The notes under the pieces are model-generated. The model was not told the DNA's origin. It was given only the letters and a program-made list of their open reading frames with translations, and ran no database searches. A stretch of DNA of 64,000 bases from Candidatus Woesebacteria bacterium (lineage in GTDB: Bacteria > Patescibacteriota > Microgenomatia > UBA1400 > UBA12108): positions 86,070 through 150,069 of the forward strand of contig JAGOVG010000001.1 in the NCBI GenBank assembly GCA_018060845.1, read 5' to 3'. Shown piece after piece: positions 1,742 to 51,775 of the stretch (position 1 is the first letter of the stretch; each line of letters begins with the position of its first letter). The position numbers and the translations under genes were made by a program.

Positions 1742-1814
1742 GGCCCAGTGGCGAAGTGGAAACGCGGCTGTCTGCAAAACAGCTACTGCACCAGTCCGAT
1801 TCTGGTCTGGGCCT
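1742..1814 (+). tRNA. tRNA-Cys (anticodon GCA)
   Basis: 7-bp acceptor stem GGCCCAG/CTGGGCC. Anticodon stem GCTGT/ACAGC with loop CTGCAAA (GCA). D-loop contains GG and the T-arm is ACCAG/CTGGT. A TATAAT lies about 10 nt upstream. The T-loop TCCGATT is slightly non-canonical. Confidence 0.7.
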
Positions 1815-1858
1815 CAGACAATATTGACTTCGGGTTTGTTTAGGATAATACTTAATTT

Positions 1859-2593
1859 GTGAAGAGAGATACTAGGGGTGGTTATAACAGAAAGAGTATA
1901 AACGAAAATTTCTTTAAGACATGGACGCCCTCCATGGCATATGTGCTTGGTTTTATGTATGCGGATGGGACAATAGTTGATTCTTATAAATCTAGTAGAG
2001 CGTACTATATTAGTTTTTCTAGTAATGACTTTCAGATTTTGAGTGATATCAAGGAAGTATTAAGGTCTAAACATATAATTTATACTGTTGCACCCAGAAT
2101 CTTGTCTCACAAAAATACTAGATATATTTCCAAGACAGGATATGTACTCAGATTAGGTAACAGAACCATGTATGAGGATTTGATTAAACTTGGACTAAGT
2201 CATAGAAAATCGCTAGTAATGTCACTCCCATCGATGCCAGATACATATTTTTCTTACTATTTGAGAGGATACTTTGATGGAGACGGATGTATAAGCATTA
2301 CAAAGGTAACATCGACAAGTAACAGGATTAGAGTTGTGTTTACCAGTGGTAGTACAGTTTTCCTATCACAGTTGGCTACGAGCATCTGTAGGCTGATCGA
2401 CGTTCCACTGCCTCACTATTATAAAAGTGTAGGTGCTTTTAACTTAGTACTCAGCGGAAATGCAGCTATAAAAGTCTTGGACTATTTATATAACAATATT
2501 GAACTGTCGCCTTCTTTGAAAAGAAAGAGGAAAATTTACTGTGACTTTTTAGAAAATAGTTCTAAATTTAATAAATTGCCAGTCATTACCTAG
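1859..2593 (+). CDS. LAGLIDADG-family homing endonuclease (free-standing, two-motif)
   Basis: Two LAGLIDADG motifs (YVLGFMYADGT and YLRGYFDGDGCI) at the spacing expected for a single-chain enzyme. The gene is markedly AT-rich relative to its neighbours. The GTG start is uncertain, and the ATG at 1935 is an alternative. Confidence 0.8.
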   Translation: MKRDTRGGYNRKSINENFFKTWTPSMAYVLGFMYADGTIVDSYKSSRAYYISFSSNDFQILSDIKEVLRSKHIIYTVAPRILSHKNTRYISKTGYVLRLGNRTMYEDLIKLGLSHRKSLVMSLPSMPDTYFSYYLRGYFDGDGCISITKVTSTSNRIRVVFTSGSTVFLSQLATSICRLIDVPLPHYYKSVGAFNLVLSGNAAIKVLDYLYNNIELSPSLKRKRKIYCDFLENSSKFNKLPVIT

Positions 2594-2594
2594 T

Positions 2595-3668
2595 TTAAGC
2601 ATTAGCAATATCTATCACTGTTTCGACCAGGCGATTGCTGTAACCCCATTCATTGTCATACCAGGCAAAAACTTTGACCAAATCCCCTCCGATTACCTGA
2701 GTTAAGTCGAGATCGACTATTGCCGACTCACTCCTACCGACTATGTCGGATGAGACGAGCGGCTCATCGGTAACTGCCAGGATGTTGTGAAATCTATCCT
2801 CGAGTGTAGCCTGGCGGAGAATGTTGTTTACCTCTTCTTTTGTAGTAGTCCTTTTGACGACAAACGTAAAGTCTGTGAGGGAGCCTGTGATAGTTGGCAC
2901 CCTGATGGAGACCCCATCAAAGAGACCTTTTAGCTCTGGAATAGTCTCGGTGGTTGCGATCGCAGCCCCAGTACTGGTGGGTACCATGTTCTGGGCAGCT
3001 GCTCTGGCACGGCGAAGATCCTTGTGAGAGGCATCCTGGAGGTTTTGGTCGTCGGTGTAGCTATGGATAGTGGTCATGGCCGCTTTGGCTATCCCGAGTC
3101 TATCCTGAAGAACCCAGGCTACCGGGGCCACACAGTTGGTGGTGCAGCTGGCATTATTGAGAACGCTGATAGTATTTTTACGATCAGCTTCGACTATCTC
3201 TGCCTCGTTGACGCCGATTACACTGGTCGGGACACCGCCTCCTTTGGCTGGAGCGGAGAGGACTACCTGCTTGGCACCGCCTGCCAGGTGCAGGCTCGCC
3301 TTTTCTTGAGAGGTAAATGCCCCTGTACTCTCGATTACCACTTCGACATTGTATTTACCCCAAGGGATCTTGGCAGGATCACGCTGCGCAAACACAGGGA
3401 TTTTGTGAGTACCACCGAGTATAAGGTGGCCAATGAGCGGATCCTCGTCACTCGCTTCTTTTGATGATTGATATTTTTCGTATGCGATCTCGCCATCAAA
3501 ACGACCGTAGGTAGTGTCATATTTGAGGAGGTGGGCCCAGCCTTCGATATCCATAGATCCAGAGGTATTGATTGCGGCTAGCTGGATGTCGCTCCGGTGT
3601 TTTTGCCACCAAACCCTGGCAGCTAAGCGACCTATACGGCCAAAGCCATTGATTGAGAATGATTTCAT
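2595..3668 (-). CDS. gap: Glyceraldehyde-3-phosphate dehydrogenase
   Basis: NGFGRIGR NAD-binding motif and active-site SCTTNCVAPV, full length at 357 aa. Confidence 0.92.
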   Translation of the reverse strand: MKSFSINGFGRIGRLAARVWWQKHRSDIQLAAINTSGSMDIEGWAHLLKYDTTYGRFDGEIAYEKYQSSKEASDEDPLIGHLILGGTHKIPVFAQRDPAKIPWGKYNVEVVIESTGAFTSQEKASLHLAGGAKQVVLSAPAKGGGVPTSVIGVNEAEIVEADRKNTISVLNNASCTTNCVAPVAWVLQDRLGIAKAAMTTIHSYTDDQNLQDASHKDLRRARAAAQNMVPTSTGAAIATTETIPELKGLFDGVSIRVPTITGSLTDFTFVVKRTTTKEEVNNILRQATLEDRFHNILAVTDEPLVSSDIVGRSESAIVDLDLTQVIGGDLVKVFAWYDNEWGYSNRLVETVIDIANA

Positions 3669-11389: not shown

Positions 11390-13078
<1,689 letters not shown>

Positions 13079-13100: not shown

Positions 13101-13403
13101 TTATTTTATTGTTGCTAAGATGTCTTCGAACTTTAAGAATTGATATTCGGTGTCATTAATCCGGACGTCGTTACCACCCCATTTTTTGTAAACTACTCTA
13201 TCGCCTACTTTAACTGGACTCTTGACCTCTTTGACGCCGCTCTCCCAAACCGAGTCACCGACGGCGATGACTGATCCTGCCTGAGGCTTTTCGTCATGGC
13301 TATCTGGGAGATAGATCCCACCTGCGGTCTGAGTGGCTTTTTCGGTTGGCTCGACCAAGACATATCCTGGCATTGGAGATAATTTTTTTGGATCTAGTTG
13401 CAT
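13101..13403 (-). CDS. groES: Co-chaperonin GroES
   Basis: 100 aa with PMPGYVLVEP...AGGIYLP...GSVIAVGD. Immediately upstream of groEL. Confidence 0.92.
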   Translation of the reverse strand: MQLDPKKLSPMPGYVLVEPTEKATQTAGGIYLPDSHDEKPQAGSVIAVGDSVWESGVKEVKSPVKVGDRVVYKKWGGNDVRINDTEYQFLKFEDILATIK

Positions 13404-13440
13404 AACTTCCTCCTGTTTAATAGTTAAATATACTTCTAAT

Positions 13441-13467
13441 TAGCAGTGTGTGACTGCGAGTGCTATG
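13441..13467 (-). promoter_or_regulatory. CIRCE-like operator upstream of groES
   Basis: Minus strand reads ATAGCACTC-GCAGTCACA-CACTGCTAA, matching CIRCE at 8/9 plus 7/9 positions. It overlaps the -10 hexamer TAACAT. Confidence 0.55.
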
Positions 13468-13495
13468 TTAGCAAAAGGTGGGATTGAGTGTCAAC
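13466..13495 (-). promoter_or_regulatory. Sigma70-like promoter of groES-groEL
   Basis: Minus strand has TTGACA (13495-13490), an 18-nt spacer, then TAACAT (13471-13466). Confidence 0.45.
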
Positions 13496-13519: not shown

Positions 13520-14341
13520 TTAGGCGGTAAAAACATCTTTGTCAGGGAGGCGGAAGAGTGGCTCACCCAAACGCTTTTGGTCGAGGTAGTGAGCGATCAA
13601 ACCAACAGAGCGAGAGAGGACAAAGATAGCATTAAAGAATTCGCTCTCGATTAAAGAGGCAAGCTCATCTCTCGTTAACTGTTCTTCGTGACTAAGCAAA
13701 TCAAGCATGACAGCTGCGAGGGTACCGTCGACGTTTAATATTAAGTTTGGTTTTTTGGCTGTAGTTAATTTTTCGACTGCTCGAGCAAAATCGAGGTGAG
13801 GATGAGGGATGTCTTGATTAAGATCTGATAAGAGTGAGACACGTGGATCGGGTGCATCGAGTCTGTATTTGCGATGACCAATACCAGGAATATACTCTTT
13901 TCGCTTGGCAAAATCTTCGACGAGAGTGGTTGGGTCGACACGGGGGTCGACCCCTACAGATTCAAACCATACCTTGGCGGCACCATTTACCGCGCCACCA
14001 AAACGAGGGCCAATAGTCAGGAGTCCGGCAACCAGAGAACTGACCAAGTCTTTGCCGGCGCGTGCAGTAACCATGGTGTTGACCGCACCTGAGACATAGG
14101 GACCGTGATCTACCAATAAGCGAAGTGCAAGATCAATCACTTTCTCTGTCTTTTTTGACTTTAGCTCTCGACCGAGCCAGAGACTACCAACAATCCAAGA
14201 TAGAGATTGGGTGGTAGCTACGTTGGTCAGATTTTTGCCTAGAATAGTGGGATCGCCACCTACGTCTCCACTAATAGTTGTGGTAAAGAGGGAGTGGGTG
14301 CGGTTGTCTAGGTTGTCCATAGTATGCAGTTTATCAGACAA
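13520..14341 (-). CDS. aclA: ATP-citrate lyase, citrate-synthase-like (citryl-CoA lyase) domain, encoded as a separate ORF
   Basis: LVDHGPYVSGAVNTMVTARAGKDLVSSLVAGLLTIGPRFGG...GIGHRKYR..PDPR...KKPNLILNVDG...LIAHYLDQKRL aligns closely with the C-terminal domain of eukaryotic ACLY and bacterial AclA. Confidence 0.8.
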   Translation of the reverse strand: MSDKLHTMDNLDNRTHSLFTTTISGDVGGDPTILGKNLTNVATTQSLSWIVGSLWLGRELKSKKTEKVIDLALRLLVDHGPYVSGAVNTMVTARAGKDLVSSLVAGLLTIGPRFGGAVNGAAKVWFESVGVDPRVDPTTLVEDFAKRKEYIPGIGHRKYRLDAPDPRVSLLSDLNQDIPHPHLDFARAVEKLTTAKKPNLILNVDGTLAAVMLDLLSHEEQLTRDELASLIESEFFNAIFVLSRSVGLIAHYLDQKRLGEPLFRLPDKDVFTA

Positions 14342-14374
14342 TCAGAATACTCGGAGAGTCTGAGATACGGATAA

Positions 14375-15331
14375 TCAGATTTTCAGATTATTAACAAGAT
14401 CAATGAATTCAGAGAAGGAGTTACTTACCTGAAAGCCAGCTTTTGTTAGCGCCTCACGCTTGGCGGTGGCAGTGACCCTATCTTTGTCGGCTTTGGCTTT
14501 GGCGTGACCAAACTGGGGTGATTCGGGGAAGAGGCTAGAGACGGTTCCGGCAATGTGAGCTAATACTTGCTTGGTAAATCTTCCTTCTTCTTTTAGTTTG
14601 ACCAGATCATATTCGTCCTCGCCACCTAGCTCACCATAATAGAGAACCGATTTTGTCTCTGGATCATTTTCGGCTAGTATAAAGGCGTCTCTCGGTGATA
14701 AAACAGGAAAGCGGTCACCACCAAAGCTAAGGGCAAAAGACAATCGAGCGCCGCCACTGGTTGCGATATTAATTAGCTCGTTGGTCATACCACCACTAGC
14801 AGATAAAACTGCCACACTACCCGGTTCTGTAAGATGTGACTCGTTGATCTGGACCGGCGTAATCCCACCGATTGGCCCGAGCTTGAGAACACCGGGAACC
14901 AGGAGGCCGACTGATGCAGGTCCTACTATTAACTTTGAAGAGTCACTATTCAACTTGATAAGGTTTTGCGAGTGCAGCTCGGGAACATTTTCGGCAAAGA
15001 GAGCGGCGCCACAAGCGTGTGGTAAGTGCTTGAGAAATTCTTCTGTACTAGATAGCGTGCGGCGACCTGAGAGGAGGTTGAGGAGCCAGAGATTTGAATT
15101 CGAATTTCGAAGTTCGAAATTAGTAATTGAAGTAAGGGTGGGAATAAGAATTTCTTTTCTACCCCAGAAATACTTAGCAAAACCTGAGCGGCCAGTGACT
15201 ATCCCTAGAATACTGCCCTCCCTTTTGCCAGATAAATAATCAAAATCGAGGATGCTCTGAATGATCCCGTCGTGGTTACCTAGGACTAATATTTTGTTGA
15301 TGCCACTTCTGATGTCTTCAATACTAATCAT
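14375..15331 (-). CDS. aclA: ATP-citrate lyase, CoA-binding/phosphohistidine domain (succinyl-CoA-synthetase-alpha-like)
   Basis: ILDFDYLSGK, YFWGRKEILIP, PGSVAVLSASGGMTNEL and catalytic-His motif QFGHAKAKA match the ACLY central region. Confidence 0.8.
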   Translation of the reverse strand: MISIEDIRSGINKILVLGNHDGIIQSILDFDYLSGKREGSILGIVTGRSGFAKYFWGRKEILIPTLTSITNFELRNSNSNLWLLNLLSGRRTLSSTEEFLKHLPHACGAALFAENVPELHSQNLIKLNSDSSKLIVGPASVGLLVPGVLKLGPIGGITPVQINESHLTEPGSVAVLSASGGMTNELINIATSGGARLSFALSFGGDRFPVLSPRDAFILAENDPETKSVLYYGELGGEDEYDLVKLKEEGRFTKQVLAHIAGTVSSLFPESPQFGHAKAKADKDRVTATAKREALTKAGFQVSNSFSEFIDLVNNLKI

Positions 15332-16455
15332 TGTGACCTCATGAGATAATTATTTACTTCGGTTACTACCTGAGTAAGAGGCGTCTCGTGACCATAGACA
15401 CACCCGAGGAGACTATTGTCGCTTAAGAAGTCGTGCATTAGCTTGAGTCCTGCCGCTTCGTTAGGACCGCCACGCCTGACAAACACTTTGACGCCGCTAT
15501 TGTTTAGTGAGTCTTTTTGCTCAGATAGAGCTCTGATTATTCCTTTAAACGTCTTAGCTACATCGGTAAAGTTGGCGACGCCGCCAGCAATAATTATGGC
15601 TTTTGGCGTTTTGTTTTTGATCAAGAGCATTTGCTTGAGAATAATTTTGGTATAGGAGTAGACGTCGTCGTCAGTTGGGGCACCACTGTACTCACCATAG
15701 TTGGCGAGCTGACCACCTAGACCTAGATCTGCGACTTCGTCGGCGAGGACTAGGCTAGCCCCACCCCCCGAGAGGAGCATCCAGATACTTCCATCCGGAT
15801 TTATAAGATGAAACTTAAGGCTAGCGGGGGTACTGTTATCCAGCTCGGCGATAGCCCGCTCTGACTCTGAGAGGAGTCGATCAGGGATTGCGGGGAGAGT
15901 AGAGCCAGCAGAGTCGATCTCAGCAGCCATATCGAGTGGAATAATTTTTTCACCCCTAATTACAATCGGATTCATCTCTAAAAAGGCGATATGGTGAACA
16001 TCGAGTTTGGGGATTAACTCTTGATTAATAAACTCTTCGAGGCGAGTCGGGAGTTTGTCGGTCACACTATCCCAGTGAGACTCGATTTCGACCCCACCGC
16101 TTTTACTATATTTGATATCCCAACCTTCACGTGCGCGAGTGAGTGACAAATATCGCTCCGCCCCGCTATCGTGCTCGTAGACTGGTTCTATTAAAAAATT
16201 GGTCCACCCCTGCTTGGCCCAGTCCGCAGTTACCGATTGGACGTCTTTTGGAGAAATATTGATTTTGACGAGACCTAGTTTGCCTCTTTTTTTGATCCCT
16301 TGGTCGACCTTGAGGACGAGGTTGGTGTCACCAAAGTGTTTTTTTATCTCAGATGCAGTAGTTTCCGCAGTCGCGGCAAGACCCTGGAATTTGAGATCAA
16401 AAATGGGATAGAGAGTAGTCTTAGCTACAAATTCGGAGATTTTTTGTCGGGACAT
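15328..16455 (-). CDS. aclB: ATP-citrate lyase, ATP-grasp subunit (AclB-like)
   Basis: LVLKVDQGIKKRGKLGLV, FLIEPVYEH, LINPDGSIWMLLSGGGASLV, LANYGEYSGAP and VFVRRGGPN give near-collinear identity with the ACLY N-terminal ATP-grasp region. The ATGA overlap with the next ORF suggests translational coupling. Confidence 0.85.
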   Translation of the reverse strand: MSRQKISEFVAKTTLYPIFDLKFQGLAATAETTASEIKKHFGDTNLVLKVDQGIKKRGKLGLVKINISPKDVQSVTADWAKQGWTNFLIEPVYEHDSGAERYLSLTRAREGWDIKYSKSGGVEIESHWDSVTDKLPTRLEEFINQELIPKLDVHHIAFLEMNPIVIRGEKIIPLDMAAEIDSAGSTLPAIPDRLLSESERAIAELDNSTPASLKFHLINPDGSIWMLLSGGGASLVLADEVADLGLGGQLANYGEYSGAPTDDDVYSYTKIILKQMLLIKNKTPKAIIIAGGVANFTDVAKTFKGIIRALSEQKDSLNNSGVKVFVRRGGPNEAAGLKLMHDFLSDNSLLGCVYGHETPLTQVVTEVNNYLMRSQ

Positions 16456-16465: not shown

Positions 16466-17023
16466 TTACCCTACACTCATCTCAGAGAGCAAAACGCCTT
16501 CACAGATGAGGCCGCGGTTCTGAAACTCTATATTGAGCTCAGTCTTGAGACGTGATTCGAGGTCGGCGCGTGAGGTCTTGATATTAACTGCGTCGACTGT
16601 GGTAAAGACTGCGGAGATCTTACTGCGACTAAATGGGCGGATCACTTTGCTAACAAAACTCTCCCCTATATTCTCCCAGAGTTCAGGAGCGTTTTGTTTG
16701 TCGATACGGAAGAGAATGCTACCCTCAACGATTACTTCTTTGCCGTCTTTGGTGCTAGTTTTGATTGGTTCATCCCCCAATTTTTCTTTGTTGCTTAAAT
16801 CAAAGCCTTTGTGGATCGTATATTCGAGAACCTGAGCGTTAAAGAGTTTGGCGATCTGCCAAAAAGGGATCTTAATATGAAGTCCTGGACCATAGACCTG
16901 CTTGAGGACACCTCGACCACGATCATAAAGACAGGCCACATGACCAGGTGGAACAGAGATAAAGAAGCCGCCTACGACCTCGTCAGCCAAAAATGACACC
17001 ACAAGATTGTCAAACATAAGCAA
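16466..17023 (-). CDS. SPFH/band-7 domain protein (short)
   Basis: VPPGHVACLYDRGRGVLKQVYGPGLHIKIPF, typical of the SPFH N-terminus. At 185 aa it is shorter than typical prohibitin/stomatin homologs. Confidence 0.5.
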   Translation of the reverse strand: MLMFDNLVVSFLADEVVGGFFISVPPGHVACLYDRGRGVLKQVYGPGLHIKIPFWQIAKLFNAQVLEYTIHKGFDLSNKEKLGDEPIKTSTKDGKEVIVEGSILFRIDKQNAPELWENIGESFVSKVIRPFSRSKISAVFTTVDAVNIKTSRADLESRLKTELNIEFQNRGLICEGVLLSEMSVG

Positions 17024-17029
17024 ATTGTA

Positions 17030-17821
17030 TCATGTCGTATGTGATTGCGCGGGTGGAGGGGTTGGTTCTGTGGGTGGAGTTGGCAGCTGTTCCTCTGGTG
17101 GTTTGGGAGTTAGTCTGGTCATCAACTTGTTCCCCCAGTCCTGAGCTAAGCGAAATGCGTTGTAGAGAGCAGAGATCGAGAGTGAAGTAATAACAAAGAG
17201 TTTTTTGCCTGAGGGGAGGAACATAAAGATAATATAGCTACCGATCGGGAGCACGACCTGGAGCAAGATCTTGTCTTTGCGTGACACTGGGAGGGGTGAG
17301 CGCATGGCAATAAGCACCTCGACCACAAAAATCATGATTGATTGGACTAGGTTGAGATAGGCGTTGGTATGACTAAGATCGTACTTGCCTAAGAAGAGCA
17401 AATTGATCGAGTCAGGGTGTGGCATAAAGTCGTATAGTAGATGAAAGTCTTTGCCCTCTAGGCCGGTCGCAAAGATGCGATAAAGCATCAGGATGATACC
17501 GAGCTGGATCAAAATGTTGGTAGTGGTTGCGAGGACAGTTCTGATGTTGCTGCGCATCACTACTCGAATTGCTTCTTTTTGACGGATTGGCTCATGGGCA
17601 TACAGTTTTTTGGCTTCTTCGATCTTGTCGATTATTTTCTGCTTTTCTTCTTCGCTCCGCTCCCCTGCGATGGTTAGAGGAAATGTGAGGATGCGAACTA
17701 TGATTGCAAAGATTATGACAGCGATACCCATGTCGGCGAGATCAGGGGAGATGGCACCTAGGAGAGCGTAGAGGCCGACTAGGATATTAAAAAATGGAGT
17801 ATAAATGTATGTTTCGAACAT
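17030..17821 (-). CDS. YidC/Oxa1-family membrane insertase paralog with Pro-rich C-terminal tail
   Basis: RILTFPLT...ILIQLGIILMLYRIF...FLPSGKKLFVITSLSISALYN parallels YidC conserved blocks (compare yidC at 48815..49549). Multiple TM helices. C-terminal TPKPPEEQLPTPPTEPTPPP. Confidence 0.45.
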   Translation of the reverse strand: MFETYIYTPFFNILVGLYALLGAISPDLADMGIAVIIFAIIVRILTFPLTIAGERSEEEKQKIIDKIEEAKKLYAHEPIRQKEAIRVVMRSNIRTVLATTTNILIQLGIILMLYRIFATGLEGKDFHLLYDFMPHPDSINLLFLGKYDLSHTNAYLNLVQSIMIFVVEVLIAMRSPLPVSRKDKILLQVVLPIGSYIIFMFLPSGKKLFVITSLSISALYNAFRLAQDWGNKLMTRLTPKPPEEQLPTPPTEPTPPPAQSHTT

Positions 17822-17830
17822 GCCAAGCTA

Positions 17831-18301
17831 TTATAGCTTGGATTGTTGAATAATATTAGTTGTTGAGACTGCGGGGTTGTGTGTATAAACTACCTGCAGC
17901 TCGCCCCCATACTTTTCAACTAACTTGGTCTTTTTATCTTGATGAGCAGTGTGACTACTAACGGCTAAGATAGTAGGACGGACGCTCGCAATCAAACTCT
18001 CAAATGCGGCTGGGTTGTTAAAATCTTTATCAAGAGCAATCAGGTAATCGGCGTAGGGAGTTAGATGATCTAGGCGGGTGGATTGAGTCTCCACTGGTCT
18101 ACCCTCCCCCTTAAGGACTCTAGCACGCTCGTCTGACTCGACTGCAACTACTAATATGTCTCCTGCTTTTTTGGCAGCATTTAAAAAATTAATGTGCTCC
18201 TCGTGCAATAGATCAAAAAACCCGGTCGCGAGGACCAGCTTGTTATCAGTATTACGCAGCTGGGTAGCTATGGGCGCAAATGACTTGATACTGTAATGCA
18301 T
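17831..18301 (-). CDS. Cytidylyltransferase-like nucleotidyltransferase (HldE domain II / RfaE-like)
   Basis: LVLATGFFDLLHEEHINFL...GDILVVAVESDE...LKGEGRP, the HxGH-type motif of the cytidylyltransferase superfamily. Confidence 0.5.
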   Translation of the reverse strand: MHYSIKSFAPIATQLRNTDNKLVLATGFFDLLHEEHINFLNAAKKAGDILVVAVESDERARVLKGEGRPVETQSTRLDHLTPYADYLIALDKDFNNPAAFESLIASVRPTILAVSSHTAHQDKKTKLVEKYGGELQVVYTHNPAVSTTNIIQQSKL

Positions 18302-18308
18302 GCCTGAA

Positions 18309-19136
18309 TTATAACCTTAATAATCGAACCTTTGGAGCAGGATTGCGGGGGTGAAAAAAGGCAGCGTCACGGGTAATATATTCGCGAGTGATCCTGGGCT
18401 TCATATAGAGGTATTGGAGTGAGTAGGCGAGTCGTTCGTATATTGGATATCGTGTGCCAGATACTTTATGGGTTTTAGTTATAGGTAGGGGGTAGTTGGG
18501 TAGATAAGTCTTGATCCAAGAGTTAGACGATAGTAGTTCTGCGTGAGTATTGTTTGGGTCATAGAGCGGAGTCATCTGCAATAGCTCGTAGGCTGTATAG
18601 AGTGAGCGGCGAGAGGCGGGCATTAAGTAAGAATCGGGGGTTAGATAGAGGTTGAGACAGAGTTTGCCCATAATATTAGTGGTCTTTGGGGTGCGACGCA
18701 GGCCTAGGAGGGAGGTGTACATAGTCAATAGTAGACGTGTCGTCCAGAGCAGCCCTGGCCTCGCAATAACTAGTAGATCGATGTCGTCGTGGCCATCGGT
18801 ATTATTCATGGCGAGACTGCCTGTTAAATATATAGCCATAACAGATGGTATACGTCGTAGGATGGGGACGTAGGACATAGCCAAATCTTTGAGTGGCTTA
18901 GATAGCTTGTCATAAAGCAACCTCTGTTTGACGAGAATACTTTGATTGGGTAAGAAGTAAAATCCCGCTTTGGTTTCGATAGCTTTTGACTTTATTAGAG
19001 CTTTTGCTTCACTCTCTAGTTTGTTCTTGACTACTTTTTGCCCCACTAGCCTCACGTGGAGCTCATCCATAGTTAGAGGATAGTGAAAATGATTAGAGTA
19101 AGAGAGCGTTGTGATAATAGCTTTGGCGAGTGTCAT
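18309..19136 (-). CDS. Pol-beta-superfamily nucleotidyltransferase domain protein
   Basis: GSLAMNNTDGHDDIDLLVI fits the G[GS]-x9-13-DhDh minimal NTase motif. Rest of protein is unrecognised. Confidence 0.4.
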   Translation of the reverse strand: MTLAKAIITTLSYSNHFHYPLTMDELHVRLVGQKVVKNKLESEAKALIKSKAIETKAGFYFLPNQSILVKQRLLYDKLSKPLKDLAMSYVPILRRIPSVMAIYLTGSLAMNNTDGHDDIDLLVIARPGLLWTTRLLLTMYTSLLGLRRTPKTTNIMGKLCLNLYLTPDSYLMPASRRSLYTAYELLQMTPLYDPNNTHAELLSSNSWIKTYLPNYPLPITKTHKVSGTRYPIYERLAYSLQYLYMKPRITREYITRDAAFFHPRNPAPKVRLLRL

Positions 19137-20602
19137 TTGGCGTCTGGGAACTTGGTCATAACCTGGGCAACGCCTGCGTCTAATGTCTTGGTGATTGAGT
19201 CGACGGTGCTCCCATTATTTATTGTGTTGATCCCATCTTCGTAGTATTTGATTAGCTGATCGTTGATCCCCTCGTCATATGTGCGACTGGTCAGATACCA
19301 GGAGACATAGTTGGGTGCCTGAGCCACATAAGGGCCAGCAAGAGGATCGCTACTCAGAAGAGTTGCCATGCTAGTTAAAGGATATGGCTCGCCGATAGTA
19401 TGGACTTGTGCGGCACCTGCATAGATTTTTTGGAGTGATTCTTCACTACTCATAAATTTGATAAATTTCCACGCCTCTTCTGCATTCTTGCTCGTTTTTG
19501 GGACAGCTTCCATCCAGTAACTAGCCCACGCGATCTTAGTGGAGGGCAAAGTAGGAGCTGGTGCGACCCCAAATTTGAGATCGGGATTAATCGCTTTGAT
19601 CTCTGGGATCTGCCAACTAGGTGCTAGGATCATGGCAACTGTGCCGGTTGCAAACGCATAGACGGAGTTAGGCTGCGCGCTATCCCAGGATTTGTCTTGA
19701 GTACTAAAGATCGTATAAAAAGTAATGGCATCCTGAACTGCGCTACTAGTCGGCTTGGATGGATCACCCGAGTTTTGCAAGATTAAGAGTCCAAGAATAT
19801 CGGACCAATGCTCGACATTACCTGTCGTACCCATCGCTGCACCAGCGCGCTCGATCACCTTGGTTTCGAGGTTAATTTTGGTTAGGTCAAAGGCTAGTTT
19901 GCGAAAACTGTTCCAGTCGGCAGGCGGTGTCGCCCCAACTTCTGCGAGCATATCCTCGTTATAGAGGAGAGCTAGGCCATCGATACCGATTGGGAGTGCA
20001 TAAGTCTTGCCAGCGCTGGTTGCGTTCTTTTTGACGACTGGGTAGTAGGCGTCAATCGTGCTTGTCGGGACCACTGCCTCTGGGGCAGGAGTGAGTGAAT
20101 TTTTAAACATTGGGAGCCAAGTGTTGTGGATCCTGGCAATGTCGGGGGCGGTATCACCATTGATTGCAGACTGCAAACGGCTCCTGTAGTTTTTGGGGCT
20201 TTGCATGGAGTATTCGATCTTTACGTTTGGATTTTGGGATTCATAATCGGCTATTACCGCTTGCATAACCGAGCTTGGTTCCCAGAGACCCCAGTAGGTG
20301 AGCGTAATATTCTCGACTTTCTTGCTGAGGCGAGGGAGGATGGTCATCGCGAGGACGACCAGGACTATGATGACGCCGAGCCCGATTAGGATCGGGATCA
20401 TGTTGCGAAAAGGAGACGGTGAAACATATTGGTCTGCAGAAGTCGGAGTTGGTGCAGGTGGGACTGAGGAAGTATTAATAGGTGCTGGATCAGGCGCTTG
20501 GTACACGGGCACCTCAGCCTGCTGAGGCGTGTTGACTACTGGCTTGTTGGGATCAACTGGGGTCGCATCGTAGTTTTTTGTTGGATCAGGGAATTTGGAC
20601 AT
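19133..20602 (-). CDS. ABC transporter substrate-binding protein (family 1, sugar-type), membrane-anchored
   Basis: Pro-rich N-terminus and TM helix. Then LTYWGLWEP...TAPDIARIHNTWLP and a length typical of SBP_bac_1. No permease or ATPase genes are adjacent. Confidence 0.65.
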   Translation of the reverse strand: MSKFPDPTKNYDATPVDPNKPVVNTPQQAEVPVYQAPDPAPINTSSVPPAPTPTSADQYVSPSPFRNMIPILIGLGVIIVLVVLAMTILPRLSKKVENITLTYWGLWEPSSVMQAVIADYESQNPNVKIEYSMQSPKNYRSRLQSAINGDTAPDIARIHNTWLPMFKNSLTPAPEAVVPTSTIDAYYPVVKKNATSAGKTYALPIGIDGLALLYNEDMLAEVGATPPADWNSFRKLAFDLTKINLETKVIERAGAAMGTTGNVEHWSDILGLLILQNSGDPSKPTSSAVQDAITFYTIFSTQDKSWDSAQPNSVYAFATGTVAMILAPSWQIPEIKAINPDLKFGVAPAPTLPSTKIAWASYWMEAVPKTSKNAEEAWKFIKFMSSEESLQKIYAGAAQVHTIGEPYPLTSMATLLSSDPLAGPYVAQAPNYVSWYLTSRTYDEGINDQLIKYYEDGINTINNGSTVDSITKTLDAGVAQVMTKFPDAK

Positions 20603-27801: not shown

Positions 27802-28680
27802 TTAGCGATCTTTAGCTTTTTCTGCCTTTAGATATGGATTGGGCATCCAGGACTCAATCATGTCCTTGGTAACTGGATCTGCCAACTTCCAGAGCGCTTG
27901 GTGGAGAGAGATCAATGAACTTGCGAGATTACTGCTTCTGATTTTGATTCCCCAGACTTCTTTGTCTTTGACTGAGACTATCCAGACACGATCGCCTTTG
28001 AGCCGGACCATAATATTAAAGTTTTGCATCTCAAATGGGAGGTAGCGAAACTGAGCACGATCTAGGTAGTGAGGGTTGCGCTCGACCTGATAAGAGAGGA
28101 CGTGTTTGGTCCAGTCGGTCATTGGGGTTAGATTGTACTCAATCCCCCTCCCACCCACACGTTTTTTAATACCTCGATCAACCCCTTTGTTCATTTCTAC
28201 CCCACCGGTCGCATCCATCGGGACTTGATAATCAAAAACATAGGAATCTTCATCGACTCCGTCGTAGTCAAACATGACGTAGTTGGCGCCCTCCATTCCT
28301 GGGAAAAACTGAAAATCAGAATCTGTTGTGTCTTTGAGATATTCTTTTTTTAGCCAAGGGAGGATTTCAACAATATCAACTTCCTGAGAATTTAGTGATT
28401 TTTGTTTGGTGTGAATGATGTCTCTGAGGACGCTCGGGTTTTTGACTATCACCTTGGTTTGCTGCTTCATGAGCCCCGTTGCACTCTCTAGTTCGACCAG
28501 ACCCTTTAGAGCGAGATCAGTTAAGACGGCATAGACAGTGGTACGAGCGATCCCGGTCGCTTTGGCAATTTTGAATGGCGAAGTTTGACCTAGCTCCACA
28601 GCTTTTTGGTAAACAATGGCTTCGTTGTCTGACAAGCCAAAGTTTTTTAAGACTTCGATTGTACGTTTTTGATAATCCAT
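27802..28680 (-). CDS. TrmB-family transcriptional regulator (paralog 1 of 4)
   Basis: N-terminal HTH with LGLSDNEAIVYQKAVELGQTSPFKIAKATGIARTTVYAVLTDLALKGLV. C-terminal TrmB-like effector domain. Confidence 0.65.
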   Translation of the reverse strand: MDYQKRTIEVLKNFGLSDNEAIVYQKAVELGQTSPFKIAKATGIARTTVYAVLTDLALKGLVELESATGLMKQQTKVIVKNPSVLRDIIHTKQKSLNSQEVDIVEILPWLKKEYLKDTTDSDFQFFPGMEGANYVMFDYDGVDEDSYVFDYQVPMDATGGVEMNKGVDRGIKKRVGGRGIEYNLTPMTDWTKHVLSYQVERNPHYLDRAQFRYLPFEMQNFNIMVRLKGDRVWIVSVKDKEVWGIKIRSSNLASSLISLHQALWKLADPVTKDMIESWMPNPYLKAEKAKDR

Positions 28681-28779
28681 TTTTCCCTCCCCTACTGTTG
28701 TTTACTGACGACAGTGATCGTCACTTTTGACACTAAGTATAGCAGGGGAGTAGGATACGAGCAACTATGGAGGATAGAT

Positions 28780-29553
28780 ATGTGCACGCAAGCAGTAAAG
28801 AGAGTAAATAATACCTGGTACCTTATGAAGACCCGTGACCCAGTGTCATGGATGCGGCACGAGGATGAGATCAAGCTCTTTGACTCCCCTACTGATAAGT
28901 ACCGCAAGCTGATTATCCAGAACCCAGTGCCTTACGAGGATGGATATTATGGAGGGATTAATGAGCAGGGAGTGGCCTTTATCTCGACATTTGTCAGAAC
29001 TAGCGAAGACCAGATCAGTTATATTCGCAAGCCATATATCAGGTTAATTTTGAATGCTGCTACTGCCAAAGAAGCTGTCGAGATAATCAAGAGCTTTAAC
29101 CCAAAAATTGGTGGGAATATGTTTGTCGCAGATCCAGATGAGTGTTACGGGATAGAAGCTACAGCTCATGAATACTTTGTCGAGCAGATCGATGATCAAG
29201 CAGTAAAGGCTAATCATTTTTGTCATATACCTGATCGGAATATCAACTTTAACAATGATCCAGAGTTTGAGATATGGAGTAAGACGCATGAGACCAGAGC
29301 TACAGAACTTGTTGCAGAGGTAGTTACTCTAGATGATTGCGAGCAACTACTGTCAGACCGAGCTAACAGTGGTACTAAACGGGCGATCTGTACCACACCA
29401 GAAGAAGCCCCGGTATATACCTACTCAGCGTTCGTGCTTGATACTAATAACAAGGTGGTGAGATATGCACAGGGATGCCCGGGTATAGTCGGGTTTAAGG
29501 AGTATTCGTTTAAGAAACCACCAAAGAACACTGCGACAGAACAGGTCGACTAG
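28780..29553 (+). CDS. Ntn-hydrolase-like protein (choloylglycine hydrolase / linear amide C-N hydrolase family-like)
   Basis: N-terminal MCTQAV with Cys2 as putative nucleophile, followed by an R-D pair (KTRD) as in CBAH/PVA enzymes. GGAGG RBS 7 nt upstream. Start trimmed from the longer ORF at 28669. Confidence 0.4.
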   Translation: MCTQAVKRVNNTWYLMKTRDPVSWMRHEDEIKLFDSPTDKYRKLIIQNPVPYEDGYYGGINEQGVAFISTFVRTSEDQISYIRKPYIRLILNAATAKEAVEIIKSFNPKIGGNMFVADPDECYGIEATAHEYFVEQIDDQAVKANHFCHIPDRNINFNNDPEFEIWSKTHETRATELVAEVVTLDDCEQLLSDRANSGTKRAICTTPEEAPVYTYSAFVLDTNNKVVRYAQGCPGIVGFKEYSFKKPPKNTATEQVD

Positions 29554-29568
29554 ATTACAATAACTCAC

Positions 29569-30756
29569 ATGGCAATAATCAAGATAGCAGAGCGAAATAT
29601 TCAAACTTTCTTTTATACCGAGGGGTTTAGGAGTCTGGTTTTTACAATCCCTGTCTGGATAGCATATCTACAGGAGCGGATCTCGATCCCACAGATATCA
29701 CTGTACCTGGCTATTGGATTTGCCACCCAGCTCATCCTAGAGCTGCCAACGGGAGCACTAGCAGACCTAATCGGGAGACGTAAAACCGTTATTCTGGGTC
29801 ACCTAATCGACTTTGTGCAGTACGGATTGTTTGCATTCGCCGTAACATTTCCCCAATTTGCTGTCCTCTCTGTTTTGTCTGGGACAGCTGAGGCGCTTCG
29901 CTCTGGGTCGCTCGAAGCACTGGTGTATGACTCGCTCAAACAGGAAAAACGGGAATCGGAGTTCCAATCCGTGATGGCAAAAATTGGTAAATGGTTCCAG
30001 ATAGGGCTGATGACTGGGACACTGCTCGGTGGCTTTATGGCGAGCTGGTGGGTGGCCCTGCCTTACCTGGCATCGTCTTTTGCCGTCTTTTGTGCAGGGA
30101 TCTGTGCCACGCGCTTTGTTGAGCCAACAATTGATAGCGAGAAGTTTGGGCTGCGCAACTACCTCCGACAAATTAAGTGGGGAGCGATAGAAGCCTTTAA
30201 GACCCAGAAGCACCGGGATATGTCGCTGTACTACATAGCTGTTGGGTCAATTACCTGGCTGTGTGCCACCTATTTTAACGATTCGATGTTGATTACCCTC
30301 GGCTTTGGTGGTGAAGAGCGCGGGATGATAGCGGCAGCACTAAGACTAATTAATGTGGTCGTGATAGCCAAACTACTGACTCAAGAAAAGTTATTCGATT
30401 TTCGCCGGACGATCATGTTCTTTCCTATCCTTATGTCTTTGGCATTACTACCCGGGTGGTGGCTGCAGGGATACTGGGGAGTCCCGTTTGTGGGTATGGC
30501 GATGATGGCTTCGACTGCTCGGTGGATACTGCTCGGCAAATATACTAACGCGGTTTTTTCCTCTAAATATCGGGCAACGGCGATCTCGGCCCTGTCTATG
30601 GCAATTAGTGTCATCTATATTTTAGGGGTAGTCTTGGCGGGACTGATCATGGGCAAGTACGGAGACACGAGACTCATATATAGTCTACTCGGGTTAATCA
30701 CAGTGTTCACTGTACCTTATCTTGGATACAGGCTAGTTGCAAATAAAGCTCGTTAA
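29569..30756 (+). CDS. MFS transporter (paralog)
   Basis: 12-TM profile. Motif LPTGALADLIGRRKTVILG (MFS loop 2-3 signature). Confidence 0.75.
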   Translation: MAIIKIAERNIQTFFYTEGFRSLVFTIPVWIAYLQERISIPQISLYLAIGFATQLILELPTGALADLIGRRKTVILGHLIDFVQYGLFAFAVTFPQFAVLSVLSGTAEALRSGSLEALVYDSLKQEKRESEFQSVMAKIGKWFQIGLMTGTLLGGFMASWWVALPYLASSFAVFCAGICATRFVEPTIDSEKFGLRNYLRQIKWGAIEAFKTQKHRDMSLYYIAVGSITWLCATYFNDSMLITLGFGGEERGMIAAALRLINVVVIAKLLTQEKLFDFRRTIMFFPILMSLALLPGWWLQGYWGVPFVGMAMMASTARWILLGKYTNAVFSSKYRATAISALSMAISVIYILGVVLAGLIMGKYGDTRLIYSLLGLITVFTVPYLGYRLVANKAR

Positions 30757-31607
30757 ATTAGTAAAACTGCACCAATAAAAGCCAAAACTGACCCAATTAT
30801 TTTATTGGGGATTCTGTTTCGCTCTTTGAGAAAAATGTAGCTGAGAATTGTTGTAGTAATAATACTTAATTGTTGTAGCGGTGAGATGATACTGGCCATA
30901 CCTCCTGCCTTGTAAGCTCCAAATATTGTGATGGAGGAAAGTGAATAAATGATACAGCATATTATCAGTTTTGCGAGAGTAGCTCTGTCGAAGTAGTGCG
31001 GGATAGCTTTTATTGAAGATGGTTTTACAAATAGTGTGAATATCCCAGGAAGAGTGAATGCTACAATCATATATGATGCAATGCTGTTGTATCGGCCAAT
31101 AATATAGGCGTCATTTATAAATGCAACACCAAATAGAAATGCACCCGCTGCTGCATAAAGGTGACCCAAGCTTAGCTTCCATTTTGATCGAGTAATATTG
31201 ATCACCACTATCCCACTGACTATTAATAAAATGCCTAGGTAGTTAGAGACCTTTAAGCGCTCTCCCAACAATACTGAGGCAGAAATGATTGCCCATATAG
31301 AGCTAGAGGAAAAAATGACGGCAACTTCTGAAGCATCGGCTAGTTTAAAGGCTTTGAAGGTAAATATATTGCCAAGACTGTAAAAGATGGTCATTACTAT
31401 CAGGTTTACCCATAGATCGGATATGTTGGGCAACTCTAAACTGTTGGTTGCTAAGGTATATATCAAGAATAATAGAGCAACTATTGTTTGAAACACAAAT
31501 CCTAGAGCGTAAGCGTCCCCCTGCTTGTTTGATAACAGTACCTTCTGCAACACCCTGGCAATAGAACCAAATAGTGCGCTAAGCAGTGCGAGCGTAATCC
31601 AACTCAT
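30753..31607 (-). CDS. EamA/DMT family transporter
   Basis: 10 TM helices with two EamA-like halves. AT-rich gene. Confidence 0.7.
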   Translation of the reverse strand: MSWITLALLSALFGSIARVLQKVLLSNKQGDAYALGFVFQTIVALLFLIYTLATNSLELPNISDLWVNLIVMTIFYSLGNIFTFKAFKLADASEVAVIFSSSSIWAIISASVLLGERLKVSNYLGILLIVSGIVVINITRSKWKLSLGHLYAAAGAFLFGVAFINDAYIIGRYNSIASYMIVAFTLPGIFTLFVKPSSIKAIPHYFDRATLAKLIICCIIYSLSSITIFGAYKAGGMASIISPLQQLSIITTTILSYIFLKERNRIPNKIIGSVLAFIGAVLLI

Positions 31608-31623
31608 ATGAGAATGATATCAC

Positions 31624-32817: not shown

Positions 32818-32830
32818 AAATCCCCCGTCA

Positions 32831-33703: not shown

Positions 33704-33731
33704 TGGTATATGATAACAGAAATACTATAGT

Positions 33732-34580: not shown

Positions 34581-34946
34581 GAAAAAGGAGGAGTTATGAC
34601 TGAGTTTGCTAAACCATTATTGGATCTGGTGCCTGGGCAAGAAGGATTACTAAAAGATGTACAGGATTTAATGCTTGTCGGTGGCATGGCAATAAAACGA
34701 ATTGATTTTGAGTCTCGCAAAAGGCTAGAGCCTGATCTAGAAGCACATGGTGCTATGAGATATTACTCGATATTAGAATTGATGAATATTTTAGCTAAGT
34801 TAGTTGAGAGTGTTGATATGCAATCTGCACGATTGGGAATATCTTCTGAGACCTGGATGGATCATCAGGGATTTCTCTTAAAAAGAGCTCAAGATTACTG
34901 TATGCTTGGGAGAGCTGAAATTGTTCGTCTACAAAATCGAGCTTAA
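34575..34946 (+). CDS. Hypothetical protein
   Basis: 123-aa ORF, no motifs. Start may be at MTEFAK. Confidence 0.3.
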   Translation: MQEKGGVMTEFAKPLLDLVPGQEGLLKDVQDLMLVGGMAIKRIDFESRKRLEPDLEAHGAMRYYSILELMNILAKLVESVDMQSARLGISSETWMDHQGFLLKRAQDYCMLGRAEIVRLQNRA

Positions 34947-34955
34947 TAACTGTTT

Positions 34956-35534: not shown

Positions 35535-35720
35535 TGTTTTGGTTTATCGGTTCAATAGAATTTTTAAGACAATTTCTTTAACACTTCATTTGGTTTTCCA
35601 GATATGTAGATTGTGTCGGCAGGGTTGATGCCGAGATTCGTTTGTATAGATATGTTTGGAAATATTGTTGATCTGGTGATTTGGTTGTAGTCCGAAAAGG
35701 AATTGTCCAGCGACGAATGA

Positions 35721-36470: not shown

Positions 36471-36476
36471 CTGGAT

Positions 36477-37328: not shown

Positions 37329-37335
37329 GAATTAA

Positions 37336-37731: not shown

Positions 37732-37791
37732 GCACGCGATTTTAGATTAATCTGGATAAGTAATATACTTGTTGTGTATAATTTGCACAGT

Positions 37792-39187: not shown

Positions 39188-39204
39188 ATGATATACAATG
39201 TCAA

Positions 39205-51772: not shown

Positions 51773-51775
51773 GGC

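What the first reader, a model, noticed from the sequence alone, without database searches (positions are those of the whole stretch)
13520..16455. Complete ATP-citrate lyase encoded as three ORFs next to groESL in a reduced genome
Three adjacent co-directional ORFs align almost collinearly with the three regions of eukaryotic ACLY and bacterial AclB/AclA. The first (15328..16455) is the ATP-grasp domain, with LVLKVDQGIKKRGKLGLV and LANYGEYSGAP. The second (14375..15331) is the CoA-binding/phosphohistidine domain, with QFGHAKA. The third (13520..14341) is the citrate-synthase-like lyase domain, with GIGHRKYR and KKPNLILNVDG. ACL is a hallmark of reductive TCA autotrophs and of eukaryotic cytosolic acetyl-CoA supply. 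Its presence in what otherwise looks like a streamlined, probably symbiotic genome suggests host-derived citrate is converted to acetyl-CoA plus oxaloacetate. The AclA part being split into two ORFs is unusual: it is either a genuine three-subunit enzyme or a recent pseudogenising break.
Basis: partly seen in the sequence, partly recalled or inferred. Interest (0 to 1): 0.7.

Follow-up and report, generated by a model that had tools for sequence, protein, structure and literature searches.

The report
Three-gene ATP-citrate lyase in CPR bacterium
Three adjacent genes in this small-genome (CPR/Patescibacteria) bacterium encode a complete, selectively maintained ATP-citrate lyase whose large subunit was split in two in an ancestor, so the enzyme is real and the split is inherited rather than damage; the enzyme itself was already known in this group.

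Summary
Three co-directional minus-strand ORFs (15328-16455, 14375-15331, 13520-14320/14341) match the three modules of ATP-citrate lyase (ACL). They match ACL far better than succinyl-CoA synthetase, citrate synthase or the Hydrogenobacter citryl-CoA synthetase/lyase: 176-207 bits to human and Methanosaeta ACLY, against 33-75 bits to those rivals.

The catalytic residues checked are present: the equivalents of human E599, H760, H900, H975, D1026 and R1065, plus the ATP-grasp and citrate-binding motifs.

The AclA split is not a recent break.
- The same three-gene layout and flanking synteny occur in about 20 species-level relatives (Woesebacteria, Collierbacteria, Microgenomates).
- There the spacer is usually 4 nt and the two genes are out of frame.
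- The split loci form one clade, sister to CPR lineages with a fused ~600-aa AclA.
- dN/dS is 0.06-0.12 for all three genes.
- The identical split recurs in an independent assembly.

ACL in CPR genomes is already published and annotated. The new element is a conserved fission at the linker between the synthetase and lyase modules. The physiological role (external citrate to acetyl-CoA plus oxaloacetate) is plausible and has precedent, but is untested. No citrate transporter or partner enzyme was found in the ~84 kb examined. Moderate interest.

The parts
15328..16455 (-). aclB-like gene (375 aa): ATP-grasp domain plus ACL citrate-binding domain
   Evidence: Pfam PF16114 200 bits and PF24948 99.8 bits, both above cutoff. 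PDB best hits: Methanosaeta ACLY-A 207 bits, human ACLY 204, Chlorobium AclB 142, Hydrogenobacter CcsA 50, SCS-beta 33. Residues K49, R57, E90, N162, D175, GGGAS 230-234, NYGEYSG 252-258, N295/T297 and R327/R328 are invariant against a metazoan-length ACLY homologue. The short length comes from loop deletions only. The 372-377 aa length is typical of the closest relatives. dN/dS 0.098 against L005.
14375..15331 (-). aclA N-module gene (318 aa): CoA-binding and CoA-ligase domains with the phosphohistidine loop. Overlaps aclB by 4 nt.
   Evidence: Pfam Ligase_CoA and Succ_CoA_lig. PDB: human ACLY 176 bits over residues 497-798, Methanosaeta 175, Chlorobium AclA 96, SCS-alpha 75, Hydrogenobacter CcsB 66. 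H276 = human H760 in QFGHAKA, E114 = E599, E234 = E718 (roles of these residues from PMC11365397). More than 120 homologues at 65-93% identity are all 300-370 aa stand-alone proteins. dN/dS 0.115.
14321..14374 (-). 54-nt spacer between the aclA N-module stop (TGA) and the CCL start. It contains a second in-frame TGA.
   Evidence: Sequence and translation. In relatives this spacer is usually 4 nt and the two genes are out of frame; in L010 it holds an inserted 309-aa ORF. It lies at the position of the 20-35 aa inter-module linker of fused AclA and ACLY.
13520..14320 (-). Stand-alone citryl-CoA lyase (CCL) module gene, 266 aa (the ORF lister extends it to TTG 14341, 273 aa)
   Evidence: Pfam Citrate_synt, profile positions 147-353 of 357 only. 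PDB: human ACLY CCL module 6hxk 198 bits, Methanosaeta 191, Chlorobium 137, Hydrogenobacter Ccl 67, citrate synthases 42 or less. H72 = H900, H149 = H975, D198 = D1026 and R237 = R1065 are invariant in alignment A1 and nearly so across the split clade. dN/dS 0.064. The source assembly calls the same 266-aa gene.
13427..13494 (-). Boundary feature: groES promoter-like site, followed by a CIRCE-like inverted repeat and (at about 13407-13412, just outside this range) an AGGAGG ribosome-binding site. It marks groESL as a separate transcription unit.
   Evidence: TTGACA-18-TAACAT with a TG extension. TAGCACTC-N9-CACTGCTAA and AGGAGG read from the sequence. The CIRCE consensus is from memory.
16466..20602 (-). 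Upstream co-directional, tightly spaced genes (SBP, Polbeta-like, cytidylyltransferase-like, YidC-like, Band7). Conserved synteny; possibly the same transcript.
   Evidence: Pfam. The same gene order occurs in L001, L003 and L087. Only 10 nt separate Band7 from aclB. Co-transcription is inferred, not shown.

Best explanation
The locus encodes a functional ATP-citrate lyase built from three polypeptides instead of two.

Proposed mechanism:
1. ORF1 (AclB-like) binds ATP in its ATP-grasp domain and citrate in its citrate-binding domain.
2. ORF2 (the N-terminal two thirds of AclA) carries the swinging loop with His276. This His is phosphorylated by ATP and passes the phosphate to citrate. The resulting citryl-phosphate is attacked by CoA to give citryl-CoA.
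3. ORF3 (the C-terminal third of AclA, the citryl-CoA lyase module) cleaves citryl-CoA to acetyl-CoA plus oxaloacetate, using the His/His/Asp/Arg set shared with citrate synthase.

Origin: the two-gene aclBA operon became three genes through one fission of aclA, at the linker between the synthetase and lyase modules. This happened in an ancestor of a Microgenomatia clade (Woesebacteria, Collierbacteria and relatives), and the three genes have been kept under purifying selection since.

What is shown: family assignment, residue conservation, conservation and monophyly of the split, and purifying selection.

What is inferred:
- Enzymatic activity.
- Whether ORF3 still docks non-covalently onto the ORF1/ORF2 module or acts on free citryl-CoA.
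- The physiological direction and role. I favour cleavage of imported citrate to supply acetyl-CoA and oxaloacetate in an organism without a TCA cycle.
For: Family identity:
- Pfam and PDB score hierarchy for all three ORFs.
- Catalytic and ligand-binding residues conserved.

Split conserved in relatives:
- More than 120 stand-alone ORF2 homologues of 300-370 aa.
- Identical three-gene layout and synteny in relatives at ~70% identity.
- Of 80 best species-representative loci, all with at least 60% CCL identity are split, usually with a 4-nt out-of-frame junction. Most below that are fused at ~600 aa.

Single origin: in an NJ tree of AclA-N plus CCL (573 columns), the 19 split sequences (the window plus 18 loci) are monophyletic in 79 of 100 bootstraps. 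They are sister to the fused CPR clade, and further outgroups are all fused (CCL-only tree).

Selection and assembly:
- dN/dS 0.06-0.12 for each gene against the closest relative.
- The same split appears in an independent Logan assembly and in the NCBI source contig.

Physiological precedent: a CPR Gracilibacterium ACL was proposed to convert external citrate to acetyl-CoA and oxaloacetate (PMC6851277). Patescibacteria MAGs with aclAB lack the other rTCA genes (PMC9671151).
Against: - No biochemical data exist for any CPR ACL.
- The phosphohistidine loop reads GHAKA rather than the canonical GHAGA; the effect is unknown.
- Pfam CoA_binding was not detected in ORF2, although that region aligns to human ACLY 497-620.
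- No citrate transporter, acetate-forming enzyme or oxaloacetate-consuming enzyme was recognised in the window or in 10 kb on each side.
- Bootstrap support for a single fission is moderate: 79% on the concatenate, 56% on CCL alone. Only NJ trees were made.
- One split-clade genome (L010) has His900 replaced by Asn and a foreign ORF between the genes.
Confidence: 0.8

Rival explanations
1. The ORF2/ORF3 break is a recent nonsense mutation, a frameshift or an assembly error in a normal aclA, and the enzyme is decaying.
For: In this window the two ORFs are in the same frame, separated only by two TGA codons and 11 sense codons. That looks like a point-mutated linker.
Against: The split is shared by about 20 species-level relatives down to ~47-60% identity, mostly with a 4-nt out-of-frame junction. 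dN/dS is 0.06-0.12. Catalytic residues are intact. The identical split occurs in an independent assembly.
Confidence: 0.02
2. The genes are succinyl-CoA synthetase (SucCD) plus a short citrate synthase, not ACL.
For: NCBIfam lists only SCS alpha/beta and citryl-CoA lyase/citrate synthase models. Some public annotations call the homologues succinyl-CoA synthetase subunits.
Against: All of those NCBIfam hits are far below cutoff (49.5 against 375; 93.7 against 336; 84.6 against 212). ORF1 has the ACL-specific citrate-binding domain at 200 bits. PDB scores to ACLY are 3-6 times those to SCS or CS. ORF3 covers only the C-terminal part of the CS profile.
Confidence: 0.01
3. It is an ancestrally unfused citryl-CoA synthetase plus citryl-CoA lyase system of the Hydrogenobacter/Aquificae kind (as CPR sequences were labelled in bioRxiv 10.1101/2022.10.25.513756), not a split ACL.
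For: The architecture is the same: large subunit, small subunit and a separate lyase. The split clade is sister to, not nested inside, the fused CPR clade. The ancestral state therefore rests on outgroups.
Against: Bit scores to Hydrogenobacter CcsA, CcsB and Ccl are 50, 66 and 67, against 207, 176 and 198 to ACLY. All nearer outgroups in the trees are fused AclA. ORF1 carries the ACLY-type domains.
Confidence: 0.07
4. The enzyme is ACL but runs mainly in reverse: acetyl-CoA + oxaloacetate + ADP + Pi gives citrate + ATP. It would serve as an ATP-conserving citrate synthase in a fermenter, as described from memory for Desulfobacter postgatei (Moller et al. 1987).
For: From general biochemical knowledge, the ACL reaction is close to equilibrium. 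No citrate importer was recognised nearby. CPR bacteria depend on substrate-level phosphorylation (PMC6851277 discussion).
Against: No aconitase, isocitrate dehydrogenase or citrate exporter was seen in the ~84 kb examined. Published CPR reconstructions favour cleavage (PMC6851277). Nothing here tests direction.
Confidence: 0.1
5. TGA read-through or recoding joins ORF2 and ORF3 into a normal fused AclA.
For: Both intervening stops are TGA and the frames coincide in this genome and in L013, L017 and L019. Some CPR lineages reassign TGA, and Trp-rich AclA representatives P0166 and P0167 hint at code-25 genomes.
Against: TGA terminates 14 of 53 long ORFs in this window, aclB included. Most relatives have the two genes in different frames, and L010 has another gene between them. 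The ORF3 N-terminus is conserved from its own ATG.
Confidence: 0.02

Closest known systems
Heteromeric prokaryotic ATP-citrate lyase AclB/AclA, especially Methanosaeta (Methanothrix) concilii ACLY-A/B (PDB 6hxi, 6znw), and human ACLY (6poe, 6hxh, 6hxk)
   Same: The three modules occur in the same order: ATP-grasp plus citrate-binding; CoA-binding/ligase with the phosphohistidine; CCL. Scores are 175-207 bits. The equivalents of E599, H760, H900, H975, D1026 and R1065 and the citrate-binding motifs are conserved. aclB is a separate gene overlapping the next one, as in other CPR loci.
   Different: - AclA is cut at the inter-module linker into two genes, and the 20-35 residue linker is gone.
- AclB is compact (375 aa against 400-430) through loop deletions.
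- The phosphohistidine loop is GHAKA, not GHAGA.
- The genomic setting is a CPR genome in which no rTCA genes were seen.
Fused two-gene aclBA of other CPR/Patescibacteria (Levyibacteriota, Roizmanbacteria, Saccharibacteria, Dojkabacteria; Gracilibacterium ACL of PMC6851277)
   Same: Closest sequence relatives outside the split clade, at 54-59% CCL identity. They share the GHAKA loop, the aclB-aclA order and a probable non-autotrophic role.
   Different: AclA is a single ~600-aa protein. The neighbours differ: murB downstream in 27 loci and fusA upstream in 22, rather than Band7 upstream and groESL downstream.
Citryl-CoA synthetase (CcsA/CcsB) plus citryl-CoA lyase (Ccl) of Hydrogenobacter thermophilus (PDB 6hxq, 6hxp)
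   Same: Three polypeptides with the same division of labour, so the split enzyme may work like this two-enzyme system (architecture).
   Different: Only distantly related in sequence (50, 66 and 67 bits). The CPR genes descend from ACL and not from the Aquificae proteins, according to the trees.

Membership tests
ATP-citrate lyase (AclB/AclA, EC 2.3.3.8) | Beta-type subunit with an ATP-grasp domain and the ACL-specific citrate-binding domain | tested here: met
   PF16114 200.2 bits (cutoff 26.8) and PF24948 99.8 bits (cutoff 83). Invariant motifs against a metazoan-length ACLY homologue.
ATP-citrate lyase (AclB/AclA, EC 2.3.3.8) | Alpha-type module with the catalytic phosphohistidine (human H760) in a GHAGA-type loop, plus the E599 equivalent | tested here: met
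   H276 and E114 align to H760 and E599. The loop is QFGHAKA in 19 of 19 split and 59 of 61 fused CPR sequences. The Gly-to-Lys change is a clade signature of unknown effect.
ATP-citrate lyase (AclB/AclA, EC 2.3.3.8) | Citryl-CoA lyase module with the His/His/Asp/Arg catalytic set (human H900, H975, D1026, R1065) | tested here: met
   H72, H149, D198 and R237 are invariant in alignment A1. Positions were mapped through the PDB alignments. Conserved in 18-19 of 19 split-clade sequences.
ATP-citrate lyase (AclB/AclA, EC 2.3.3.8) | Synthetase alpha module and CCL module fused in one AclA polypeptide | tested here: not met
   Two stop codons and a 54-nt spacer lie between them. The genes are separate in all close relatives and in an independent assembly.
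ATP-citrate lyase (AclB/AclA, EC 2.3.3.8) | Phylogenetic placement among ACL sequences rather than CCS/CCL, SCS or CS | tested here: met
   PDB score hierarchy. NJ trees place the clade among fused AclA sequences. All-CPR clade 85 of 100 bootstraps, split clade 79 of 100. No ML tree was made.
ATP-citrate lyase (AclB/AclA, EC 2.3.3.8) | Citrate-, ATP- and CoA-dependent production of acetyl-CoA and oxaloacetate; assembly around a CCL tetramer | not testable with these tools
   Needs purified proteins and structural or hydrodynamic analysis.
Citryl-CoA synthetase + citryl-CoA lyase (Hydrogenobacter type) | Lyase encoded as a separate polypeptide from the two synthetase subunits | tested here: met
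Citryl-CoA synthetase + citryl-CoA lyase (Hydrogenobacter type) | Sequence affiliation with CcsA, CcsB and Ccl | tested here: not met
   50.3, 66.2 and 66.7 bits to 6hxq_B, 6hxq_A and 6hxp_A, against 207, 176 and 198 bits to ACLY chains.
Succinyl-CoA synthetase + citrate synthase | Scores above the curated SCS alpha/beta and citrate synthase model cutoffs; full-length citrate synthase | tested here: not met
   49.5 against 375.6, 93.7 against 336, and at most 58.6 against at least 332 bits. ORF3 matches only CS profile positions 147-353.
Reductive TCA cycle autotrophy | Co-occurrence with 2-oxoglutarate:ferredoxin oxidoreductase, fumarate reductase, aconitase and the other cycle enzymes | tested here: inconclusive
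   None were seen in the 64-kb window or in 10 kb on each side. The literature reports aclAB without other rTCA genes in Patescibacteria MAGs (PMC9671151).

The most novel reading that the evidence does not exclude
The fission may have uncoupled the two half-reactions. ORF1/ORF2 would then act as a free citryl-CoA synthetase and ORF3 as a free citryl-CoA lyase, with no ACL holoenzyme. That would be a natural reversal of the proposed CCS + CCL to ACL fusion, maintained across a whole CPR clade. It could allow independent regulation, or reverse, ATP-yielding operation in an organism without a TCA cycle.
Probability: 0.2. Interest if true: 0.6.

Novelty: new variant of a known kind. Interest (0 to 1): 0.4.

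Why it matters
ACL is usually read as a marker of rTCA autotrophy or of eukaryotic cytosolic acetyl-CoA supply. Here it sits in a minimal, probably host-dependent bacterium, and the GTDB scan shows it is common in several CPR classes.

The clade-wide, selectively maintained split at the synthetase/lyase linker is a natural experiment. It asks whether the covalent tether of ACL, thought to have arisen by fusion of CCS and CCL, is needed for catalysis or substrate channelling.

There is also a practical point for annotation. The three genes are often labelled succinyl-CoA synthetase subunits, citrate synthase or hypothetical protein. Automated metabolic reconstructions of these genomes will therefore miss a route to acetyl-CoA and oxaloacetate.

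Tried and rejected
- **Alternative genetic code (TGA as a sense codon) fusing ORF2 and ORF3.** Rejected from stop-codon usage and the out-of-frame junctions in relatives.
- **groESL adjacency as a functional link.** Rejected. groES has its own promoter-like site, a CIRCE-like repeat and a strong RBS. Fused-AclA lineages have different neighbours.
- **Citrate transporter or acetyl-CoA/oxaloacetate partner enzymes.** I looked in the window and 10 kb beyond each end. Only generic MFS and EamA transporters below every NCBIfam cutoff turned up, plus an Acyl_transf_3 protein.
- **Neighbourhood clustering across 81 loci.** It gave only housekeeping neighbours: murB, fusA, and a few Kbl-like/Tdh-like genes.
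- **Rfam and tRNA scans of the window.** They found only tRNA-Cys.
- **Verschueren et al. 2019 (Nature).** The paper could not be read, so statements about the ACLY CCL tetramer core rest on my own knowledge.
- **Structure prediction.** Not run. The sequence matches to solved ACLY chains (E about 1e-50 to 1e-60) already settle the folds, and the tools cannot model a heteromer.
- **Walking further along the 227-kb source contig.** Not possible, because look-ups are limited to proteins encoded in the window.


Full report
**Observation.** Three co-directional minus-strand ORFs lie at 15328-16455 (375 aa), 14375-15331 (318 aa) and 13520-14341 (273 aa). groES (13101-13403) and groEL (11390-13033) follow them. 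ORF1 and ORF2 overlap by 4 nt, as their coordinates show. ORF2 and ORF3 are in the same reading frame, separated by TGA, 11 codons and a second TGA. TGA is a normal stop in this window: it ends 14 of 53 long ORFs, ORF1 included.

The true ORF3 start is probably ATG 14320, giving 266 aa. The N-terminus MDNLDNRTHSLF then matches relatives, and the source assembly's gene call uses the same start.

**Identity.** Pfam assigns the following:
- ORF1: the ACL citrate-binding domain (PF16114, 2.6e-59) and the ACLY ATP-grasp domain (PF24948).
- ORF2: Ligase_CoA and Succ_CoA_lig.
- ORF3: the C-terminal part of the citrate synthase fold.

Bit scores against solved structures show the same hierarchy for all three ORFs:

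| Reference | ORF1 | ORF2 | ORF3 |
|---|---|---|---|
| Methanosaeta ACLY-A/B | 207 | 175 | 191 |
| Human ACLY | 204 | 176 | 198 |
| Chlorobium AclB/AclA | 142 | 96 | 137 |
| Hydrogenobacter CcsA/CcsB/Ccl | 50 | 66 | 67 |
| SCS (ORF1, ORF2) or citrate synthase (ORF3) | 33 | 75 | 42 |

NCBIfam SCS, CS and citryl-CoA lyase models all fall far below their cutoffs.

**Catalytic residues.** Human numbering was transferred through the printed alignments.
- ORF2: E114 = E599, H276 = H760 (in QFGHAKA), E234 = E718.
- ORF3 (266-aa numbering): H72 = H900, H149 = H975 (GIGHR), D198 = D1026 (LILNVDG), R237 = R1065.

The roles of H760, E599 and E718 are described in PMC11365397. The CCL residue roles are from my own knowledge of the ACLY literature. 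All of these residues are invariant in alignment A1. Across 19 split-clade sequences they are conserved 18-19 times out of 19.

ORF1 keeps the ATP-grasp and citrate-binding motifs. Its short length comes from loop deletions only and is typical of its closest relatives.

One clade-wide peculiarity stands out. The phosphohistidine loop is GHAKA in 78 of 80 CPR sequences, against GHAGA in most others.

**The split is old and maintained.**
- More than 120 ORF2 homologues at 65-93% identity are all stand-alone proteins of 300-370 aa.
- Relatives at ~70% identity show the same layout: SBP, Polbeta-like, cytidylyltransferase-like, YidC, Band7, aclB, aclA-N, CCL, groES, groEL.
- A scan of GTDB species representatives with a CCL alignment found 448 loci. 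The best 80 have Patescibacteria titles (Woesebacteria at 90% identity, Microgenomates, Roizmanbacteria, Levyibacteriota, Saccharibacteria) or what I infer to be placeholder names.
- Classifying these loci by tblastn and ORF tracing gave a clear pattern. Every locus with at least 60% CCL identity is split, usually with a 4-nt out-of-frame junction. L007 has a 350-nt spacer and L010 a 1-kb spacer. Nearly all more distant loci have a fused AclA of ~600 aa.
- NJ trees group the split loci into one clade, sister to the fused CPR clade, with further fused outgroups. Bootstrap support for the split clade is 56 of 100 on CCL alone and 79 of 100 on AclA-N plus CCL.
- dN/dS against the closest relative is 0.098, 0.115 and 0.064 for the three genes.
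- The window comes from NCBI GCA_020049755.1, contig JAHZTO010000034.1. An independent Logan assembly carries the identical split.
- The break falls at the inter-module linker, which is 20-35 residues in the full-length fused AclA and ACLY sequences aligned and is absent here.

Pseudogenisation, assembly error and TGA read-through are therefore rejected.

**Mechanism and role.** The chemistry is that of ACL. ATP-dependent phosphorylation of H276 is followed by formation of citryl-phosphate and then citryl-CoA on the ORF1/ORF2 module. ORF3 then cleaves citryl-CoA in a retro-Claisen reaction. The residues for each step are shown to be present; activity is inferred.

Two questions remain open: whether ORF3 still forms the core of a non-covalent holoenzyme, and whether it instead acts on free citryl-CoA as in Hydrogenobacter.

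The setting is a typical CPR genome. It carries DUF4012, a VirB4/PrgI-type secretion cluster beside dnaA-dnaN, and few metabolic genes. No rTCA enzymes, citrate carrier or acetate-forming enzymes were seen in ~84 kb. groESL is a separate unit, with its own promoter-like site and a CIRCE-like repeat.

The favoured role is cleavage of imported citrate to supply acetyl-CoA and oxaloacetate. This rests on precedent: a Gracilibacterium ACL (PMC6851277), and Patescibacteria MAGs with aclAB but no other rTCA genes (PMC9671151). Reverse, ATP-yielding operation remains possible.

**Novelty.** ACL in CPR is already annotated, for example as 'ATP citrate lyase b-subunit [Microgenomates group bacterium GW2011_GWA2_46_16]' and as 'ATP citrate (pro-S)-lyase' by JGI. 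It has also been reported in the literature (PMC6851277, PMC9671151, PMC12577380). A preprint noted CPR and DPANN sequences that group with CCS/CCL and are misannotated as SCS or CS (10.1101/2022.10.25.513756).

This analysis adds three points. The three-gene form in the Woesebacteria/Collierbacteria clade derives from ACL. It arose by a single fission at the linker. It has been kept under purifying selection. I found no paper describing this. It is a new variant of a known enzyme and of moderate interest.

Noticed in passing
window 14498-14506 (ORF2 residues 276-278); loci L001-L084: The phosphohistidine loop reads GHAKA (Gly to Lys two residues after the catalytic His) in 78 of 80 CPR AclA sequences, against GHAGA in most non-CPR ACLs. 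This is a clade signature of unknown consequence.
   Followed up: partly
L010:4997-5926 and L010:6001-6810: In one split-clade genome a 309-aa ORF of unknown function sits between the aclA-N and CCL genes. Its CCL has the H900 equivalent replaced by Asn (LVDNGP).
   Followed up: partly
L059:4986-6807 (Microgenomates bacterium OLB23): AclA is broken at a different position, inside the ligase domain, with overlapping ORFs of 274 and 351 aa. This looks like a frameshift or an independent disruption.
   Followed up: no
proteins P0166 and P0167: Two fused AclA representatives have Trp where Gly is conserved (for example WIPEQD, SWWMMNEL). They look like TGA=Gly (code 25) genomes translated with the wrong table, which implies ACL also occurs in Gracilibacteria/Absconditabacteria-like organisms.
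   Followed up: no
window 1742-2593: tRNA-Cys (1742-1815, +) is followed directly by a free-standing LAGLIDADG homing-endonuclease-like ORF (1859-2593, +), next to GAPDH (2595-3668, -).
   Followed up: no
window 27802-41240: Four TrmB-family regulators are interleaved with three MFS and three EamA transporters. None reaches an NCBIfam cutoff, so their substrates are unknown.
   Followed up: partly
window 48815-57080 and beyond the 3' end (L089): The replication-origin region (yidC, dnaA 50426-51772, dnaN 52014-53117) adjoins a type IV secretion-like cluster: VirB4/TraG-like 53169-55052 and PrgI-like 56058-57080. Three T4SS_pilin genes lie just outside the window.
   Followed up: no
window 13440-13494: groES is preceded by a promoter-like TTGACA-18-TAACAT site and an imperfect CIRCE-like inverted repeat (TAGCACTC-N9-CACTGCTAA). 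This suggests HrcA-type heat-shock control in this CPR genome (the CIRCE consensus is from memory).
   Followed up: partly
window 17831-18301: A small cytidylyltransferase-like gene is conserved in synteny upstream of the ACL genes in the split clade. Its best NCBIfam hit is RfaE domain II (95 bits, below cutoff), with a weak archaeal pantetheine-phosphate adenylyltransferase hit (29 bits). A link to CoA metabolism is speculative.
   Followed up: no
loci L023-L084 (fused-AclA CPR genomes): murB follows aclA in 27 loci and fusA precedes aclB in 22. A Kbl-like aminotransferase occurs nearby in 8 loci and a Tdh-like dehydrogenase in 6. If the Kbl/Tdh reading (made by eye from the sequences) is right, these two enzymes convert threonine to glycine plus acetyl-CoA.
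   Followed up: partly
window 17030-17821 and 48815-49549: There are two YidC/60KD_IMP paralogues. The divergent one (60 bits) lies in the conserved block upstream of the ACL genes, and the canonical one (165 bits) lies near dnaA.
   Followed up: no
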